Below, in pieces: positions 24,422 through 36,749 of a stretch of 38,403 bases of DNA. The stretch lies in UHGV virus genome UHGV-0824332. One strand, given 5' to 3'. The stretch comes from a virus. The first letter of the stretch is position 1, and each line of letters opens with the position of its first letter. The position numbers were made by a program, and so were the translations under genes. The notes below the pieces were generated by a model, which saw nothing but the letters and a program-made list of their open reading frames with translations, was not told the DNA's origin and made no database searches.

Positions 24422-24778
24422 ATGAACGACCAGCAAATCGAAAAAGAAATCGTTGAGAAAGGCAAAACCGCTCCGCGAGTTACGCCTCAATATATCGAAA
24501 GCATCATTCTTGAAGAGCATTTCTTTACTGCTTATGACGGCATTCGTGCTGCCAATATGGGCGTTGGCGATACGTGGACAGCGCATAAATCTACAGACCT
24601 CCTTACTTTCTGCGTACTGGTGCTGAAGAATGGCTTCACCGTCACCGGAGAGAGCGCATGTGCAAGCCCGGAAAACTTTGATGCAGAAATTGGTCGGAAG
24701 ATTGCCAGGCAGAATGCTGTAAACAAAATCTGGATGCTTGAAGGTTACTTGCTGAAGCAGAAGTTAAGCGAGCAATAA
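24422..24778 (+). CDS. Conserved small phage protein (possibly N4 Gp49 / Sf6 gp66 family), function unknown
   Basis: 118 aa, strong RBS; family assignment from memory only. Confidence 0.5.
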   Translation: MNDQQIEKEIVEKGKTAPRVTPQYIESIILEEHFFTAYDGIRAANMGVGDTWTAHKSTDLLTFCVLVLKNGFTVTGESACASPENFDAEIGRKIARQNAVNKIWMLEGYLLKQKLSEQ

Positions 24779-24782
24779 CACC

Positions 24783-24794
24783 GTGACATGTCAC
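24783..24794. other. Perfect 12-bp palindrome GTGACATGTCAC (copy 1)
   Basis: Identical palindrome recurs at 27048..27059; both lie just beyond stop codons flanking the terminase module. Confidence 0.45.
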
Positions 24795-24868: not shown

Positions 24869-26344
24869 TTAAGCATAGGGATCGTAATCTGTAATGGCCT
24901 TGCCTTGCTGGTTCTGCTGACCTGGAATTCGCAGACGCTTCGACACAGGGAAAGCAAACGTCAGCAATAGCGCATCGCCTTTACCCGGCGAACGCCCAAG
25001 CCGCTCCTTGATATCTTCCTTCGGTTCGATAACGATTTTACCGTCCACTCGAACTTTGTACTCTGCCGCCGACAGGTCGTCCGCTGTTTCCTGGTCATCA
25101 AGCATCCCGCCCAGCCTCAGCCATGTCTTGCATGAGTTGAACATCTCCCCACGCTTGTTGAGCATCTGCGGGTCAGTAGACGCGCCACCGAACGGAACAA
25201 GTTGCCATGTGCGCCCCCAACCGTCACCGATTGACTTCAGACCGGTACCGTAACCAAAGTCGATGAACACTGCGTCAGCCTGATACAGGTCTTCAAAATC
25301 AGCGATACGCTTCGCCATAATCAGATCGTCGGTAGTCTTGTTGCCAGTCCACAGCACCTTACTGTGTAGCCCCTGCCGCAGGTATATCACCGCGTCATCA
25401 ACGCCTGAATATGCCGGGTCAACACCGATTATCACCGGAGCATGTGCAACCTGCGCAGCGGTTACCACCCGTTTCATTGCCTCGTCAGTAAGACCGGTAG
25501 GGATAAACTGCAATTCAGATGCATCAGGGAATATGCCGCGCACACGGATTTTAACGAAGTCGCTGTCTTCCCCGTAGTCATCAACCCATTTCTGCAACTG
25601 CTGTTTGTTAGTGCCTTCCACCGTCCGGCTGTCAATCTGCGCACACTTCCAGCGGTGTTTGTACTTGCGGAAACATTCACGGAAACGCCCGGTGTTACGC
25701 GTCGGGTTCCCGAACGCCACCCAGATGATTTCGGTGTCTTCGTCCGTCAGCGCACCCTCTGCTACCTCCCACACCAGATCGGCAATGTTCGACGCTTCAT
25801 CGAATACCACGATGATGCGTTTGCGCTCGTTGTGTAGTCCGGCGAATGCCTCAGTGTTGTGCTCAGACCAGGGTATTGCGTCAGCCCGCCATCGCTTGTC
25901 GTGCCCTGGGTCATTGCTGTACATCGCGGTAGCGGTACAGGTAAACCAGTCTTTCGTGATAGCAAGGTTCGACCACTTGATAATTTCCGGCCAGGTCTTC
26001 GTTCGTAGCTGGTTGTCGGTGTTGGCGGTCACCACGACCTTACAATCCTCGCAAGTGGACATGCCCCAGTTGATCAGCATTGAGATGAATGCGGATTTAC
26101 CAATACCGTGACCCGAAGCACGTGCCAGCATAAGCGGCTGATAGCGCGTCTCTGGATTCTGCAGGTGATCACGTATCTCTCGGAACGCATCAGCCTGCCA
26201 CTGACGTGGGCCGGTAGCATGTGCCAGTTCAGTCCCCTCTTCCCCCCACGGGAACGCATAGAGGGCATAGCCAAGCGGATCGTGAGTGAACCCTGCAATA
26301 TCCTCGATCAACTGCTCTTCAGGAGATAACGCTGTATCTGTCAC
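24869..26344 (-). CDS. Terminase large subunit
   Basis: 491 aa with ATPase-like and nuclease-like regions; stop overlaps small-subunit gene. Confidence 0.9.
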   Translation of the reverse strand: MTDTALSPEEQLIEDIAGFTHDPLGYALYAFPWGEEGTELAHATGPRQWQADAFREIRDHLQNPETRYQPLMLARASGHGIGKSAFISMLINWGMSTCEDCKVVVTANTDNQLRTKTWPEIIKWSNLAITKDWFTCTATAMYSNDPGHDKRWRADAIPWSEHNTEAFAGLHNERKRIIVVFDEASNIADLVWEVAEGALTDEDTEIIWVAFGNPTRNTGRFRECFRKYKHRWKCAQIDSRTVEGTNKQQLQKWVDDYGEDSDFVKIRVRGIFPDASELQFIPTGLTDEAMKRVVTAAQVAHAPVIIGVDPAYSGVDDAVIYLRQGLHSKVLWTGNKTTDDLIMAKRIADFEDLYQADAVFIDFGYGTGLKSIGDGWGRTWQLVPFGGASTDPQMLNKRGEMFNSCKTWLRLGGMLDDQETADDLSAAEYKVRVDGKIVIEPKEDIKERLGRSPGKGDALLLTFAFPVSKRLRIPGQQNQQGKAITDYDPYA

Positions 26345-26937
26345 TGATTACCATCCTGACGTTCTTTGAGTCGCTTCCTGGCTGCTGCTATGCGATCAGC
26401 AATTGTCACATTCACATTAACATCCAGACGTTCTTTGAACGCGTTGACATCAACATGCTTACCAATCAGCTCAAGGTTCTTCACCTTGTCAGGCCATTTA
26501 ATTTTTTTGAGGATTGTCTCTATCGAATCCTCGTTCATGTTCATGATGGTCGATGACAGATCAAAGCCACTAAGCGTAGTGCGCCAGATTTTCGGCCACT
26601 CACGGATTGGTTTAAGGCTCCCATCGTCGTTGAGGATGTCGATCACGTCCATCTGGTCGATCTCCACCAGGCGCATGAGAACGTAATCAGCACTGACGCG
26701 CATTCGTTTGTTGCGCTCCTCCATCAACTCGGCAATCCGTTTTTGAATGCGTTCATCGCGCATCATGACACTGGCTTTAACTGCCGCTGTATTTGGGGAG
26801 AATCCTGCGTTAATCGCTGCCTGAGTCTGGTTTTCAGGCGTTTTGATGTATGACTGGCAATAAGCCTCCTGCATTGCTGTTAGTGGCTTAAATTGCGTTG
26901 ATTTGCGTTTATAGGTTTTAGGTTCAGCAGGCATCAT
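26341..26937 (-). CDS. Terminase small subunit
   Basis: Probable ATG at 26937 (MMPAEPKTYKRK...) preceded by GGTGG; helix-turn-helix-like N-terminus; directly upstream of large subunit. Confidence 0.7.
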   Translation of the reverse strand: MMPAEPKTYKRKSTQFKPLTAMQEAYCQSYIKTPENQTQAAINAGFSPNTAAVKASVMMRDERIQKRIAELMEERNKRMRVSADYVLMRLVEIDQMDVIDILNDDGSLKPIREWPKIWRTTLSGFDLSSTIMNMNEDSIETILKKIKWPDKVKNLELIGKHVDVNAFKERLDVNVNVTIADRIAAARKRLKERQDGNQ

Positions 26938-26954
26938 AACCACCGTGGTAATAG

Positions 26955-26969
26955 TTACCGTTGTGGTAA
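26955..26969. promoter_or_regulatory. Operator site M, TTACC-GTTGT-GGTAA, with overlapping extra half-sites, 18 bp upstream of terminase start
   Basis: Perfect family palindrome; adjacent GGTAATAGTTACC and GGTAATAGTACC half-site arrangements. Confidence 0.45.
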
Positions 26970-26979
26970 TAGTACCATG

Positions 26980-27006
26980 CAAAATAAAGCCGCCATAGTT
27001 GGCGGC
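26980..27006 (-). terminator. Rho-independent terminator just upstream of the packaging/late genes
   Basis: GCCGCC-ATAGTT-GGCGGC followed on the minus strand by TTTATTTTG. Confidence 0.55.
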
Positions 27007-27047
27007 AGTATTCAAAACCCATCAAATTCATCATGCATAATCTACTC

Positions 27048-27059
27048 GTGACATGTCAC
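27048..27059. other. Perfect 12-bp palindrome GTGACATGTCAC (copy 2)
   Basis: Overlaps the stop codon of the 27056..27397 gene. Confidence 0.45.
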
Positions 27060-27397
27060 ACTATTAATTTCGTTTCATGCCAGCCTTTAGTCACCCAGCA
27101 TTGCGAGTCACCATTACACGGGCATGAATTAACTGGAACTCTCTCGCCGCACTTACCGCAACGTTTTCTGCTGATCGATTTTATACGCCCGCGCACCCGG
27201 GCATCATCCTGGCGGATCAGCAGCGCGATGTACTCGGCCATTTCATAGGGATCTCGACCAGGGCGCCGGGCGGCGCAGTTCCGCTCCAGCATTTCAATTT
27301 CCTGAGCATCAAGCACAATCTCCAGCTTACGTACACCGGATTCAGCTTGTCTGGCTCTCTGAGCGGCTTTGCGCTCTGCTGCTGATTTAGCCATCAA
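27056..27397 (-). CDS. Putative DNA-binding protein with C-terminal zinc ribbon (possible late-gene regulator)
   Basis: 113 aa; basic N-terminus, C-terminal CGKCGERVPVNSCPCNGDSQC; last gene before the terminator and terminase. Confidence 0.45.
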   Translation of the reverse strand: MMAKSAAERKAAQRARQAESGVRKLEIVLDAQEIEMLERNCAARRPGRDPYEMAEYIALLIRQDDARVRGRIKSISRKRCGKCGERVPVNSCPCNGDSQCWVTKGWHETKLIV

Positions 27398-30458: not shown

Positions 30459-30473
30459 TTACCCCTCAGGTAA
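30459..30473. promoter_or_regulatory. Operator site D, TTACC-CCTCA-GGTAA, 4 bp upstream of the DUF1064 start codon
   Basis: Perfect family palindrome overlapping the RBS region. Confidence 0.5.
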
Positions 30474-30520
30474 TTAAAAACCACATAAGACACGAAATCA
30501 ATAGAGTTTAGAATATTTTA

Positions 30521-30535
30521 TTACCCGACAGGTAA
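30521..30535. promoter_or_regulatory. Operator site E, TTACC-CGACA-GGTAA
   Basis: Perfect family palindrome, 62 bp from site D, between P-like stop and DUF1064 start. Confidence 0.5.
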
Positions 30536-32466: not shown

Positions 32467-32481
32467 TTACCTTTGAGGTAC
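32467..32481. promoter_or_regulatory. Operator-like site F, TTACC-TTTGA-GGTAC
   Basis: Family palindrome with one half-site mismatch. Confidence 0.4.
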
Positions 32482-32803: not shown

Positions 32804-32866
32804 TCACCCATAAGGTAACAAAAATCAAGAATAGTTACCTATGAGGTGCATTTACCTGTTGGGTAA
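32804..32866. promoter_or_regulatory. Immunity operator region (OR-like) with three sites G, H, I and divergent promoters
   Basis: TCACC-CATAA-GGTAA (32804-32818), TTACC-TATGA-GGTGC (32835-32849), TTACC-TGTTG-GGTAA (32852-32866) between Cro-like and repressor starts. Confidence 0.6.
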
Positions 32867-32921: not shown

Positions 32922-33506
32922 ATGAAAAGTATCCAGGACGTCCGCAGGCAAAATCTCAACGACTTGATCGACCGTGAATTCAATGGTGTTCAGACGCGGA
33001 TGGCAGAAAAACTTGGAACTCAGGCAAATCTGGTAAACCGCTGGGCTCTTGGCAAGAAGGTTATCGGCGACCAGGTTGCGCGAAAAATTGAAGCTGCCGC
33101 CAATAAACCCCGTAACTGGCTTGATATTGATCGTTCGCTTTCTCAGGAGGGTTTTCAGCCTGTCGGCCCGAGCGATATAGGTCAGCTGGCGGCTCACAAC
33201 CTGGAACGCTGGATGAGCGAAAGCCGCGACCTTTCAACACAGGGAAAACTTCACCGCGCATCCGGCGTCGCCCAGGTGACAATCAGCCGTCTGTTAAACA
33301 ATGAGGTCAGCGTTTCCATTTCCACCCTGGAGAATGTTGCATCCGCATTCGGGCGTCACGGATATGAATTACTGATTCACCCGCACGACCCCGCGACTAT
33401 CAACTATGACCGCTCGCGCTACGCATTGTTACCTGAAACAGAGAAGGCAAAGATCGAAAGTTACATTGAATTTGTCATCAACCAGAACGAAAAAAGCAAA
33501 CAATAA
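32922..33506 (+). CDS. CI-like repressor with two HTH (XRE-type) domains and no S24 peptidase domain
   Basis: 194 aa; HTH-like segments around residues 20-60 and 110-150; C-terminus lacks the Ser/Lys peptidase motif region. Confidence 0.7.
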   Translation: MKSIQDVRRQNLNDLIDREFNGVQTRMAEKLGTQANLVNRWALGKKVIGDQVARKIEAAANKPRNWLDIDRSLSQEGFQPVGPSDIGQLAAHNLERWMSESRDLSTQGKLHRASGVAQVTISRLLNNEVSVSISTLENVASAFGRHGYELLIHPHDPATINYDRSRYALLPETEKAKIESYIEFVINQNEKSKQ

Positions 33507-35019: not shown

Positions 35020-36042
35020 ATGTCTATCAATGCACTTAAGGCAGCGGCTACCGGTAACCAAGTTGCACATCATAATGAGAAACCAACAACTCTGGCCGGA
35101 CTTCTGGCAGATCCCAAAATTAAAGCTCAGATGGCTTTGGCACTTCCAAAGCACATGACAGCAGACCGTCTGGCGCGCATAGCAACCACAGAGATCCGAA
35201 AGGTTCCAAAACTTGCATCATGCGACCAAGCCAGCTTCCTGGGGGCAATTATGCAATGTGCCCAATTGGGTCTTGAACCAGGCGGAGCTCTTGGACACGC
35301 TTACCTGATACCGTTCGACAAACGCCAGAAAGTAAATGGAAGATGGGAAACCGTATCTACAGAAGCACAGCTGATTATCGGCTATCGCGGAATGATTGAC
35401 CTTGCCCGCCGCTCTGGGCAGATCCTGAGTATCTCGGCTCGTACCGTACATACAAACGACAAATTCAGCTACTCATACGGCCTGGAAGAAACGCTCGAGC
35501 ATTTACCTTGCGAAACAGGTGACCGCGGAGAATTAACGCACGTTTACGCCGTTGCACGACTGAAAGATGGCGGAGTCCAATTTGAAGTTATGAGCCGGGC
35601 AGACGTTGAGAAAGTTCGTGCACTGAGCAAAGCCGGTAGCAGTGGCCCATGGGTTGATCACTTCGATGAGATGGCTAAAAAAACAGTAATTCGCCGACTG
35701 TTCAAATATCTTCCTGTTTCTATTGAAATGCAGAAGGCTGTTGTTATGGATGAGCGCGCTGAAGCTGGACTTAGCCAAGATAACGCAGCTGTTATCACTG
35801 GTGAATATTCCGTAGTTGACGATGAGCGTCAACACCTATCGCCAATTTCAGATTCAGAACGAGAAGAAGCTCGAGAATATATCATCGCGATACTTAATAG
35901 CCTGGATCCATCTGCTGAAGATGCAAAAACGATGTTCAAGCGCGCTGAAAATGAAATTAACACTATGGCTGAAAAGCTCGGTGATGAATATCACCAAAAA
36001 TTCATGATGACGCTTAACGATATGCGTCCAGAATTCGAGTAA
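35020..36042 (+). CDS. RecT-family single-strand annealing protein
   Basis: 340 aa with RecT-like core (LIIGYRGMIDLARRSGQ) directly downstream of the exonuclease. Confidence 0.85.
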   Translation: MSINALKAAATGNQVAHHNEKPTTLAGLLADPKIKAQMALALPKHMTADRLARIATTEIRKVPKLASCDQASFLGAIMQCAQLGLEPGGALGHAYLIPFDKRQKVNGRWETVSTEAQLIIGYRGMIDLARRSGQILSISARTVHTNDKFSYSYGLEETLEHLPCETGDRGELTHVYAVARLKDGGVQFEVMSRADVEKVRALSKAGSSGPWVDHFDEMAKKTVIRRLFKYLPVSIEMQKAVVMDERAEAGLSQDNAAVITGEYSVVDDERQHLSPISDSEREEAREYIIAILNSLDPSAEDAKTMFKRAENEINTMAEKLGDEYHQKFMMTLNDMRPEFE

Positions 36043-36449: not shown

Positions 36450-36749
36450 GTGAGAAAGTTAAGCCGACTTGAAAAATATCACATGAACAAGGTTTCAATG
36501 CGCCGTCCTTCAAAGGTTGTTGCCGTTACTCCTGCGGCGATAGAGATCGAAAAACTCGCGATTGAAAGAGAGAAAAAAGGGCAGTTCCGCATTGCCGCTC
36601 ACCTTTGGCTTCAGTGTATGGATGTTGCTTCTGGTGATGTTGAACGTGCAAGGATCGCGGTTCGCAGGGACCAATGTATCACAAAAGGTAACGGCCTTCG
36701 CCGTGGCGACTATAGCGGCATAGGATGTTGTGGGGTGGTTTATGACTAA
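36450..36749 (+). CDS. Small regulator-like protein (possibly ANR family)
   Basis: 99 aa; GTG start preceded by GAGAGGG; family call from memory. Confidence 0.4.
   Translation: MRKLSRLEKYHMNKVSMRRPSKVVAVTPAAIEIEKLAIEREKKGQFRIAAHLWLQCMDVASGDVERARIAVRRDQCITKGNGLRRGDYSGIGCCGVVYD

What the first reader, a model, noticed from the sequence alone, without database searches (positions are those of the whole stretch)
26940..27397. Late-operon control region: zinc-ribbon protein, terminator, then operator-type half-site array before terminase
A 113-aa basic protein with a C-terminal CxxC...CPC zinc ribbon is the last gene before a hairpin/U-tract terminator (about 26980-27006). An array of TTACC/GGTAA half-sites then sits 18 bp upstream of the small terminase start. 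No Q-like antiterminator was recognised, so late expression may depend on this small protein or on relief of repressor binding at site M.
Basis: inference. Interest (0 to 1): 0.45.

Follow-up and report, generated by a model that had tools for sequence, protein, structure and literature searches.

The report
Repressor-gated start of phage late operon
This is the boundary between the early and the packaging/late genes of an epsilon15/phiV10-like temperate phage, made of a terminator, a probable promoter and two binding sites for the prophage repressor; it is ordinary and already annotated in phage epsilon15, but the small gene upstream carries an unexplained conserved DNA palindrome.

Summary
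All features are on the minus strand.

**What is there**
- A 112-aa gene at 27394-27056. The true start is the ATG, not the TTG.
- An intrinsic terminator at 27006-26981.
- An array before the small terminase gene (conserved ATG at 26934).

**The array** is better read as two copies of TTACC-N5-GGTAA: one perfect (26969-26955) and one with a single mismatch (26951-26937, over the ribosome-binding site and start codon). The window holds 9 perfect copies against 0.03 expected. They cluster around the repressor/cro genes, so this is the prophage repressor's operator. The epsilon15 GenBank record already marks the equivalent site and terminator.

**Added here**
- A conserved extended -10 element, TGnTAnnAT (26977-26969), abuts the first operator. 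Late genes probably start at a promoter repressed directly by the repressor.
- The repressor is an SPC32H Rep homologue. A LexA-boxed antirepressor is present.

**The small protein** has a ribbon-helix-helix fold plus a zinc ribbon (phrog_536; epsilon15 gp49, N15 gp46). It is probably not the late regulator, because relatives coexist with Q-type regulators.

**Unexplained:** its gene is followed by a 12-bp palindrome, GTGAC-NN-GTCAC, in at least five phage types.

**Verdict:** a known kind of element, low to moderate interest.

The parts
27056..27394 (-). Gene for a 112-aa basic protein with a ribbon-helix-helix (RHH) domain and a C-terminal zinc ribbon. It belongs to phrog_536 'transcriptional regulator', the family of epsilon15 gp49 and N15 gp46. 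It is the last gene of the nin-like operon.
27048..27059 (.). PAL1: perfect 12-bp palindrome GTGACATGTCAC overlapping the stop codon of the RHH gene. It is the candidate binding site of that protein.
   Evidence: GTGAC-NN-GTCAC lies within -40..+120 nt of the stop in 49 of 77 homologue loci. It also follows the gene in N15, Kpn74, ZF40, a P2-like Yersinia phage and L088/L089. Its offset from the stop varies (-4, +1, +2, +4, +23), so coding constraint does not explain it.
27015..27047 (-). Non-conserved spacer holding the 3' remnant (ATGATGAATTTGATGGGTTTTGA) of a 70-aa moron gene that is intact in about 29 of 80 close relatives. The scan's promoter-like hit GTGACA-18-CATGAT lies on this scar.
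   Evidence: Tyrion and epsilon15 carry an unrelated 23-nt spacer here.
26981..27006 (-). Intrinsic terminator: 7-bp GC-rich stem, loop ACTA, then TTTATTTT. It ends the upstream operon.
   Evidence: RNA fold. Consensus structure across 7 relatives, with wobble changes and one compensatory pair. The equivalent stem-loop is annotated as a rho-independent terminator in epsilon15 at 39646-39672.
26969..26977 (-). Candidate extended -10 promoter element TGgTACTAT for the late (terminase) operon. No -35 hexamer is present. The start of transcription is predicted near 26962.
   Evidence: Read directly from the sequence. In 22 distinct variants plus more distant relatives, TG, TA and AT never change, while the base after TG and positions 3-4 of the hexamer vary: TACTAT, TATTAT, TACCAT, TACAAT, TAGTAT, TATGAT. 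The same 11-mer GTACTATTACC forms the -10/operator junction of a promoter with a proper -35 at about 6650-6676. Inference only; no transcript data.
26955..26969 (.). Operator O1: a perfect TTACC-N5-GGTAA palindrome abutting the -10 element and covering the predicted transcription start.
   Evidence: Arms are invariant and the spacer varies across relatives. The equivalent epsilon15 site at 12-27 is annotated 'protein_bind: repressor'.
26937..26951 (.). Operator O2: a one-mismatch copy (TTACCACGGTGGTTA on the minus strand), 18 bp centre-to-centre from O1. It overlaps the Shine-Dalgarno GGTGG (26944-26940) and the first ATG.
   Evidence: The right arm reads GGTAA in epsilon15-type relatives.
26341..26934 (-). 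Small terminase subunit gene (197 aa, Terminase_2). The 224-aa form annotated from the TTG at 27015 in phiV10 and PAS61 is over-extended.
   Evidence: Pfam Terminase_2 E=1e-29 and phrog_51. Substitutions in the upstream 'TITT' stretch are mostly non-synonymous, and the first ATG is lost in relatives. Annotations.
24783..24794 (.). PAL2: a second perfect GTGACATGTCAC. It lies between the bidirectional terminator after the large terminase gene and the stop codon of the opposite-strand gp49/Sf6-gene-66-like moron (24422..24778, plus strand).
   Evidence: The same arrangement is seen in L091-L098, epsilon15 (2142) and Tyrion (2702).
30459..30535 (-). Context: a repressor-operated promoter that probably drives the operon ending in the RHH gene. 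The order is operator, TTGATT-17-TTTAAT, operator, then the ATG of the DUF1064 gene. The operators are 62 bp apart, as at the leftward early promoter (33564/33626).
   Evidence: read directly; no transcript data. The epsilon15 record marks a repressor site at the equivalent place, 35906-35922.
32804..32866 (.). Context: three operator copies (32852 perfect, 32835 with 2 mismatches, 32804 with 1 mismatch) between the cro-like gene (ATG 32767, minus strand) and the repressor gene (32922..33506, plus strand). This placement is what identifies the motif as the immunity operator.
   Evidence: The repressor matches PDB 5D50, labelled 'Repressor' there, at E=3.5e-42. The epsilon15 record names 5D50 as the Salmonella phage SPC32H repressor.

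Best explanation
The window is an epsilon15/phiV10-like (Uetakevirus) temperate phage, and 26937-27006 is the junction between its nin-like early operon and its packaging/late operon.

**Proposed mechanism**
1. Transcripts of the upstream operon probably start at a repressor-controlled promoter near 30480. They end at an intrinsic terminator at 27006-26981.
2. Immediately downstream lies a weak sigma-70 promoter of the extended -10 type (TGgTACTAT, 26977-26969) with no -35 hexamer.
3. Two copies of the prophage repressor's operator, TTACC-N5-GGTAA, lie over it. O1 covers the -10 edge and the start site. O2 covers the terminase ribosome-binding site and start codon.
4. In a lysogen, the repressor (a homologue of the tetrameric SPC32H Rep) occupies these sites. 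That blocks both initiation here and any read-through from upstream genes expressed in the prophage.
5. On induction, a LexA-controlled antirepressor takes the repressor off all operators at once, and terminase/late transcription begins.

**Shown by computation:** the motif, its enrichment and placement, its conservation pattern, the terminator, and the repressor and antirepressor homologies.

**Inferred, not shown:** that the repressor binds here, that TGnTAnnAT fires, and the timing.

**The 112-aa RHH/zinc-ribbon protein** is a separate DNA-binding accessory protein. It most likely recognises the palindrome GTGAC-NN-GTCAC that follows its gene. It is probably not the late-gene switch.
For: **Operator motif**
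- 9 perfect TTACC-N5-GGTAA copies against 0.03 expected.
- Three copies lie between the cro-like and repressor genes, two lie after the repressor gene around a TTGACA-16-TAATTA promoter, and two lie before the small terminase gene.
- The epsilon15 record annotates repressor sites at the equivalent positions, including 12-27 before the small terminase gene, and a terminator at 39646-39672.
- Epsilon15 and Tyrion carry 11 and 9 perfect copies at matching positions.
- Arms are invariant and spacers variable in 22 sequence variants.

**Repressor and antirepressor**
- The repressor matches PDB 5D50 at E=3.5e-42.
- SPC32H Rep binds palindromic sites as a tetramer and is disassembled by Ant (PMC9638917, citing Kim et al. 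2016).
- An Ant homologue and a LexA box TACTGTATAAATATACAGT lie at 5287-5305.

**Promoter and terminator**
- TG, TA and AT are invariant, and the other positions are free.
- The same -10/operator junction is used at about 6662, where a good -35 is present.
- Terminator.

**Other**
- No Q-like or N-like gene was found.
Against: - There are no transcript or binding data for this phage.
- The -10 hexamer TACTAT matches only 4 of 6 consensus positions, and there is no -35.
- The pattern TGNTANNAT is common by chance, so only its conservation supports it.
- That conservation could partly reflect a degenerate third operator arm (GGTAC) or RNA structure.
- The promoter scan found nothing here.
- If the promoter is not real, the operators would act only as a roadblock.
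- How late timing is achieved with a single repressor is not explained.
- The epsilon15 sites are themselves predictions.
Confidence: 0.55

Rival explanations
1. The operators act only as a roadblock or insulator, and there is no promoter here. Late genes would be transcribed by read-through of the terminator from the upstream operon. Repressor bound at O1/O2 would stop leaked transcripts, for example from moron genes inserted upstream, from entering the terminase genes in a lysogen.
For: - The standard scan finds no -35/-10 promoter between the terminator and the small terminase gene.
- Morons with their own LexA-type promoters are inserted just upstream in relatives.
- 'Terminator then operator' recurs elsewhere, at 32467 after the cro terminator.
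Against: - The terminator is strong and conserved, and no antitermination factor or RNA was found.
- TG and TA..AT stay invariant while neighbouring bases vary, which a roadblock role does not explain.
Confidence: 0.2
2. The 112-aa RHH/zinc-ribbon protein is the late-gene regulator of this phage group, filling the role of Q or RinA. It would bind the palindrome at its own stop codon and allow RNA polymerase to pass the terminator or to start at the late promoter.
For: - It is the last gene before the late genes in all Uetakevirus relatives.
- It lies directly upstream of the lysis cassette, across a 300-500 nt gap, in L088, L089 and Vibrio phage K308; in L088 and L089 that gap holds terminators and promoter-like hexamers.
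- It is predicted to bind DNA.
- A palindrome followed by a terminator recurs with different terminator sequences.
- No other late regulator was found in the window.
Against: - ZF40 has the family gene together with a separate Q-like gene three genes downstream.
- N15 has it (gp46) together with a putative antiterminator in immB (PMC4488713).
- A P2-like phage has it after gpA.
- The palindrome-to-late-start distance varies from about 74 to about 290 bp (my counts).
- Extra palindromes sit at the 3' ends of genes rather than before operons.
- No consistent -10 element lies next to the palindrome (my reading of the sequences).
- No similarity to the Q, Ogr or RinA families.
Confidence: 0.13
3. 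The repeat array is the recognition site of the small terminase (a pac site), by analogy with SPP1 pacL or lambda cosB, which lie just upstream of the small terminase gene.
For: - The array and hairpin travel with the small terminase gene as one module.
- These phages package by the headful route: Tyrion is circularly permuted with terminal redundancy (PMC5754475), and phiV10's large terminase is annotated as similar to P1 PacB.
- Aeromonas phage 2_D05, whose small terminase is 60% identical, also has TTACC...GGTAA before the gene.
Against: - The same 15-bp motif occurs at 9 or more places in the genome, including the immunity region. A pac site should be unique.
- More distant small terminase homologues lack any array.
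- Deposited record starts are arbitrary and do not mark physical DNA ends (PMC5754475).
Confidence: 0.05
4. The array acts at the RNA level. The leader folds into a long hairpin that hides the terminase ribosome-binding site and start codon and so limits small terminase translation. This does not exclude the operator reading.
For: The predicted fold pairs GGUAA/UUACC and ACCAC/GUGGU across the Shine-Dalgarno sequence and AUG. The 136-nt region has a z-score of -3.8 against shuffles. The pairing is largely kept in Tyrion through wobble pairs.
Against: - Any pair of adjacent DNA palindromes will fold as RNA.
- One pair is broken in epsilon15.
- If transcription starts near 26962, the 5' half of the hairpin is not in the transcript.
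Confidence: 0.07

Closest known systems
Predicted repressor-binding sites and terminator in Salmonella phage epsilon15 (GenBank NC_004775.2)
   Same: Same genus, same gene order (gp49 homologue, terminator, operator, small terminase) and same 15-bp motif TTACC-N5-GGTAA. The record marks 'protein_bind: repressor' at 12-27 and a rho-independent terminator at 39646-39672.
   Different: The window has a 3' scar of a moron between gene and terminator. Its second operator arm reads GGTTA rather than GGTAA. The epsilon15 features listed include no promoter at this junction and no palindrome after gp49.
Rep/Ant switch of Salmonella phage SPC32H (PDB 5D50; Kim et al. 2016, as summarised in PMC9638917)
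   Same: The window's repressor matches the 5D50 chain at E=3.5e-42. An Ant-family antirepressor and a LexA box are present. Rep binds palindromic sites as a tetramer, which suits paired operators.
   Different: Nothing I could read shows Rep binding to a site in front of the terminase genes.
Lambda late control (Q gene, PR', tR', late genes)
   Same: A small gene at the end of the early region is followed by a terminator immediately before the late genes.
   Different: There is no Q-like protein, no conserved promoter upstream of the terminator, and no Q-binding element or pause signal. Here the control element downstream of the terminator is the immunity operator, so late genes would answer directly to the repressor.
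MatP/matS of E. coli (matS = GTGACRNYGTCAC, PMC6907758)
   Different: The centre is 2 bp rather than 3 bp, so the site is 12 bp against 13 bp. Profile comparison with MatP is not significant. No MatP Pfam domain matches. The phage protein has a zinc ribbon where MatP has a coiled coil.
RinA/LtrC/ArpU late activators of Gram-positive phages (from my own knowledge)
   Same: A small regulator gene placed directly upstream of the small terminase gene.
   Different: No sequence or fold relation was found. The family here also occurs far from terminase genes and alongside Q-type regulators.

Membership tests
Immunity operator of epsilon15-like phages (Rep/CI-type) | A 15-bp palindrome of the same form as the sites flanking the repressor and cro genes | tested here: met
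   26955-26969 is a perfect TTACC-N5-GGTAA and 26937-26951 has 1 mismatch. Sites of identical form lie at 32804/32835/32852 and 33564/33626.
Immunity operator of epsilon15-like phages (Rep/CI-type) | Motif present far more often than chance and in intergenic control positions | tested here: met
   9 perfect copies against 0.03 expected. As far as the flanks were read, they lie between genes, next to promoter-like hexamers or after terminators.
Immunity operator of epsilon15-like phages (Rep/CI-type) | Arms conserved and spacer free across relatives | tested here: met
   22 variants: the TTACC and GGTAA arms of O1 never change, and the spacers vary (ACAAC, AAAAC, ATAAC, ACGAC, ACAAT).
Immunity operator of epsilon15-like phages (Rep/CI-type) | Physical binding by the repressor | not testable with these tools
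   Only the repressor's homology to PDB 5D50 and the predicted annotation in epsilon15 are available.
Intrinsic (rho-independent) terminator | GC-rich hairpin followed by a U-tract, kept in relatives | tested here: met
   7-bp stem with 6 GC pairs plus TTTATTTT. Consensus fold -12.9 kcal/mol, pairs kept through wobble changes and one change on both sides.
Extended -10 sigma-70 promoter | TGn immediately upstream of a TAnnnT hexamer | tested here: met
   TGgTACTAT at 26977-26969. TG, T1, A2, A5 and T6 are invariant in all relatives.
Extended -10 sigma-70 promoter | A transcript starting 6-8 nt downstream | not testable with these tools
   No RNA data are available.
Ribbon-helix-helix DNA-binding proteins | The strand-helix-helix fold | tested here: met
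Ribbon-helix-helix DNA-binding proteins | Sequence match to an RHH family model | tested here: inconclusive
   Only faint hits in a few members: RHH_5 0.013, RepB-RCR_reg 0.028, RHH_1 0.071, and the NCBIfam LexA-regulated protein model at 0.074.
Q-type antiterminators | Similarity to a Q family (lambda, 21 or 82 type) | tested here: not met
   No Pfam, NCBIfam or PDB sequence match to Q. The fold is RHH.
Q-type antiterminators | Being the only late regulator of its phage | tested here: not met
   It coexists with a Q-like gene in ZF40 and with a putative antiterminator in N15 (PMC4488713).
MatP/matS | 13-bp site GTGACRNYGTCAC | tested here: not met
   The site here is 12 bp, GTGAC-NN-GTCAC. 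No 13-bp version occurs in the window, even allowing 1 mismatch.
MatP/matS | MatP domains (PF06303, PF17414) | tested here: not met
   No Pfam hit in any of 56 members. hhalign probability 0.4%.
TraR/DksA C4 zinc-finger proteins | Sequence match to the zinc-finger family | tested here: inconclusive
   The family profile matches TraR (6n57_M) at E=0.039 and YbiI at E=0.044 over the helix plus zinc ribbon. There is no Pfam match, and the N-terminal half is RHH.
pac / terminase recognition site | A unique site at the start of the packaging series | tested here: not met
   The motif is repeated 9 or more times across the genome. Physical DNA ends could not be tested.

The most novel reading that the evidence does not exclude
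The phrog_536 RHH/zinc-ribbon protein and the palindrome GTGAC-NN-GTCAC form a portable protein-plus-site module. It is shared by podophages (epsilon15 type), N15-like linear-plasmid phages, the myophage ZF40, P2-like phages and others. Further copies of the site mark the 3' ends of transcription units, next to bidirectional terminators and moron junctions. The protein could be an insulator or termination-control factor. Because the site is one base pair short of the host matS site, it could instead interact with or mimic the MatP system that organises the chromosome terminus. I found no paper containing this sequence.
Probability: 0.3. Interest if true: 0.6.

Novelty: already known. Interest (0 to 1): 0.3.

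Why it matters
As submitted, the finding matters little. It rediscovers, in one more epsilon15/phiV10-like phage, a terminator and repressor site that the epsilon15 GenBank record already marks.

Two points go further.

**Direct repressor control of late genes.** The conserved TGnTAnnAT element suggests these phages place their packaging/late operon under direct control of the prophage repressor, with no Q-type relay. If a 5' end mapping confirms it, that is a simpler circuit than lambda's. It would also explain why no late regulator has been found in this genus.

**The palindrome after the RHH gene.** It is conserved across very different phages and has no published explanation. It is a cheap target for a gel-shift experiment, and it may define a new regulatory or DNA-organising module.

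**Annotation.** The 224-aa small terminase annotation in phiV10-type records appears over-extended.

Tried and rejected
1. **Promoter between gene and terminator.** The scan's GTGACA-18-CATGAT hit lies on a deletion scar of a 70-aa moron and is absent in Tyrion and epsilon15. Rejected.

2. **GGTAA-N3-TTACC as the repeat unit.** It gives only 3 hits in the window at up to 1 mismatch, close to chance. Replaced by TTACC-N5-GGTAA.

3. **Long small terminase from the TTG at 27015.** Rejected, because substitutions in that stretch are mostly non-synonymous.

4. **The palindrome as a fixed-position activator site or part of a promoter.** By my reading of the roughly 37 distinct sequences following it, only about 9 have a TANNNT within 12 nt. 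Its distance to the late start also varies. Rejected.

5. **Co-variation between the RHH protein and presence of the palindrome.** Absence follows clades (Providencia/Proteus, some Xenorhabdus), but those phages carry the palindrome 1-1.8 kb upstream or have different downstream modules. Inconclusive.

6. **Homology to MatP.** hhalign was not significant. The homologue search returned only near-identical MatP sequences, so no profile could be built.

7. **Distant small terminase homologues.** phiES15, 2_D05, 611R5, IME1369_01 and phi297 were checked for an upstream array. Only 2_D05 has anything similar.

8. **Physical DNA ends from record starts.** phiV10, Tyrion and epsilon15 records open at arbitrary points, and Tyrion is circularly permuted (PMC5754475).

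9. **Primary papers.** The epsilon15 genome paper and the SPC32H Rep paper could not be fetched.

10. **Exact 14-mer scan of IMG/VR for the palindrome.** Retrieved stretches were partial. Only 19 of 80 showed the family gene adjacent. Many of the rest are second or third copies in contigs already known to carry the gene, and some are probably chance matches.
Full report
**Identity of the window.** Megablast of 26300-28000 hits phiV10, TL-2011b, PAS61, ZX5, Tyrion and epsilon15-type phages of the genus Uetakevirus. The genes of interest run on the minus strand. In the direction of transcription the order is:
- a lambda-P-like replication gene
- DUF1064
- an HNH gene
- an Ea22/DUF551 gene
- phrog_625
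- a 112-aa gene
- small terminase (Terminase_2)
- large terminase

The same order is annotated in TL-2011b, PAS61, Tyrion and epsilon15.

**Checking the observation.** The ORF is listed from a TTG at 27397 (113 aa). Homologues are almost all 112 aa and begin MAKS or MPKS, so the start is the ATG at 27394. The protein is basic, with pI 9.5. The CxxC pair (C79, C82) is invariant and C99 nearly so in 56 homologues down to about 28% identity. The terminator scan finds GCCGCCAACTATGGCGGC at 27006-26989 followed by TTTATTTTG. Across seven relatives the stem is kept through wobble changes and one change on both sides.

**What the array is.** GGTAA-N3-TTACC is barely above chance in the window. TTACC-N5-GGTAA occurs 9 times perfectly against 0.03 expected, and 38 times against 11.5 at up to two mismatches. 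The copies are placed as follows:
- three between the cro-like gene and the repressor gene (32852, 32835, 32804)
- two after the repressor gene, bracketing a TTGACA-16-TAATTA promoter for the leftward operon (33564, 33626)
- two bracketing a TTGATT-17-TTTAAT promoter in front of the DUF1064 gene (30521, 30459; also 62 bp apart)
- several around the antirepressor and tail-spike region (5234, 5615, 6662)
- a one-mismatch copy upstream of the gp3/portal genes (23810)
- two before the small terminase gene (26955 perfect, 26937 with one mismatch)

The motif is therefore the immunity operator.

The repressor (32922..33506) matches PDB 5D50 at E=3.5e-42; the epsilon15 record names that entry as the phage SPC32H repressor. 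According to PMC9638917, SPC32H Rep binds palindromic sites as a tetramer and is taken apart by the antirepressor Ant. The window encodes an Ant homologue, and a LexA box lies at 5287-5305.

The epsilon15 GenBank record already carries 'protein_bind: repressor' features at the equivalent positions. These include 12-27 just before the small terminase gene and a rho-independent terminator at 39646-39672 after gp49. Epsilon15 and Tyrion hold 11 and 9 perfect copies. Their repressors are 43% and 78% identical to the window's, and the N-terminal DNA-binding part appears the best conserved (alignment). The core of the finding is therefore already annotated in the type phage.

**A probable promoter.** The standard scan finds no -35/-10 pair between terminator and start codon. 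Read directly, however, the sequence after the U-tract is GCA TGg TACTAT TACC.... That is a TGn extended -10 motif plus a TAnnnT hexamer, and the hexamer's last T is the first base of operator O1.

I compared 22 distinct variants from about 110 loci, plus more distant relatives (Rahnella, Buttiauxella, Superficieibacter). In all of them TG, T1, A2, A5 and T6 never change. The base after TG is G, T or A, and hexamer positions 3-4 read CT, TT, CC, CA, GT or TG. This pattern fits a -10 element. It does not fit a coding region, where changes would be mostly synonymous, and it fits a third operator arm poorly. The same 11-mer GTACTATTACC forms the -10/operator junction at about 6662, where a TTGCAG -35 sits 17 bp upstream.

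I therefore propose a weak late promoter with no -35, repressed directly. O1 would lie over its start site, and O2 over the Shine-Dalgarno sequence and the first ATG. This is inference, because no transcript data exist. If the promoter does not fire, the operators would still act as a roadblock behind the terminator; that is the first rival.

**The segment between gene and terminator.** In 29 of 80 close relatives a 70-aa gene sits between the palindrome and the hairpin. The window keeps only its last 23 bases (ATGATGAATTTGATGGGTTTTGA). Tyrion and epsilon15 have an unrelated short spacer. No conserved signal lies here, and the scan's promoter hit at 27059-27030 is a by-product of the deletion.

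**The small terminase start.** The phiV10 and PAS61 records annotate the small terminase from the TTG at 27015, which makes the hairpin and operators coding. Variation there is mostly non-synonymous, and the first ATG is ATT or ACA in relatives. The conserved start is 26934.

**Is it the late regulator?**

Evidence for:
- It is always the last gene before the small terminase gene in this genus.
- In three unrelated groups (L088, L089, Vibrio phage K308) it sits just upstream of the lysis cassette, across a 300-500 nt gap. In L088 and L089 that gap holds terminators and promoter-like hexamers, which is the position Q occupies in lambda.

Evidence against:
- In ZF40 a 69%-identical homologue is followed by ninB, an HNH gene and a separate Q-like gene.
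- N15 has gp46 of this family together with a putative antiterminator in immB (PMC4488713).
- A P2-like Yersinia phage carries it after gpA.

I rate this reading at about 0.13.

**The palindrome.** A perfect GTGACATGTCAC overlaps the stop codon at 27059-27048.
- Among 77 loci with homologues of 50-83% identity from Enterobacterales, plus two at about 35%, GTGAC-NN-GTCAC lies within -40..+120 nt of the stop in 49.
- From a per-position frequency of about 4 in 10^6 over 160 nt, I estimate roughly 0.05 such loci by chance.
- The offset from the stop varies and the two central bases are free.
- It also follows the gene in N15, Kpn74, ZF40 and the P2-like phage.
- The window has a second perfect copy at 24783-24794. 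It lies between the bidirectional terminator after the large terminase gene and the stop codon of an opposite-strand gp49/Sf6-gene-66-like moron.
- Epsilon15 has three copies and Tyrion two within its record, plus one split across the record ends. All lie at the 3' ends of genes, and those examined in detail (window and epsilon15) sit beside terminators.
- The half-sites equal those of matS (GTGACRNYGTCAC, PMC6907758), but the centre is one base shorter.
- Comparison with MatP is not significant.
- No paper in the library contains the sequence.

The RHH protein is the best candidate to bind the palindrome, on adjacency alone. What the pair does is unresolved. This is the only part of the locus that looks new.

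**Other rivals.** A terminase recognition site is unlikely, because the motif is repeated throughout the genome and distant small terminase homologues lack it. An RNA hairpin that hides the ribosome-binding site is predicted. It follows automatically from two adjacent palindromes, and half of it would be missing if transcription starts at the proposed site.

**Verdict.** The features are real and far from chance. They form the repressor-gated start of the late operon behind a terminator, as already annotated by prediction in epsilon15. The small protein is a DNA-binding accessory factor and not a demonstrated late switch. Interest is low to moderate. The conserved extended -10 element and the gene-plus-palindrome module are the two items worth an experiment.

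Noticed in passing
window 24783-24794 (and 27048-27059): Two perfect copies of GTGACATGTCAC flank the terminase genes. The second lies between a bidirectional terminator and the stop codon of an opposite-strand gp49/Sf6-gene-66-like moron. The half-sites equal those of matS, but the centre is 1 bp shorter.
   Followed up: partly
L185, L233, L204, L214, L219 (IMG/VR stretches): In some viral contigs the same palindrome sits inside dense arrays of GTCACG/GTGAC half-sites that look like iterons or a centromere-like site. This suggests a wider family of proteins reading this half-site.
   Followed up: no
window 27015-27037: A 3' remnant of a 70-aa moron gene (MPKIRYDLEDMRD...YDEFDGL) that is intact in about 29 of 80 close relatives. 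The window is a deletion variant.
   Followed up: yes
window 26935-27015; phiV10 DQ126339.2 41-715; PAS61 OQ921333.1 12387-13061: Public records annotate the small terminase from a TTG, giving 224 aa and reading through the terminator and operators. The conserved start is the second ATG at 26934, giving 197 aa.
   Followed up: yes
window 30459-30535: A terminator is followed by operator, TTGATT-17-TTTAAT, operator, and then the ATG of the DUF1064 gene. The two operators are 62 bp apart, exactly as at the leftward promoter (33564/33626). The nin-like operon therefore seems to have its own repressor-controlled promoter.
   Followed up: partly
window 5234-5305 and 5311-6589: A LexA box TACTGTATAAATATACAGT (5287-5305) lies in front of a small antirepressor-like ORF and an Ant homologue (5852-6589). 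A repressor operator (5234) lies between TTGCAA and TATCTA on the opposite strand, facing the tail-spike gene. This resembles the SPC32H-type Rep/Ant induction circuit.
   Followed up: partly
window 36450-36749 (+): A PerC-family transcriptional activator homologue (Pfam PerC, E=2.5e-7; phrog_868) in the leftward early operon.
   Followed up: no
L091, L092, L100, L118, L125, L131, L148, L150: In many prophages the space just after the palindrome is occupied by morons with their own LexA-box promoters (TACTGT-N8-ACAGTA). In Xenorhabdus (L130, L140, L146) it is occupied by a HigB-like toxin cassette. The site is a hotspot for cargo insertion.
   Followed up: no
OR757455.1 (Salmonella phage VB_ST_E15), junction of record end and start: The terminator sequence GGCCGCCGACTATGGCGGCTTTGTTTTG appears twice across the circular junction. 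This is probably an assembly overlap and not a real duplication.
   Followed up: no
window 7491-7506: The terminator GGCCGCTAAAGCGGCC lies at a convergent junction. In relatives it is followed directly by a third copy of the palindrome and variable cargo; in the window that palindrome is absent.
   Followed up: partly
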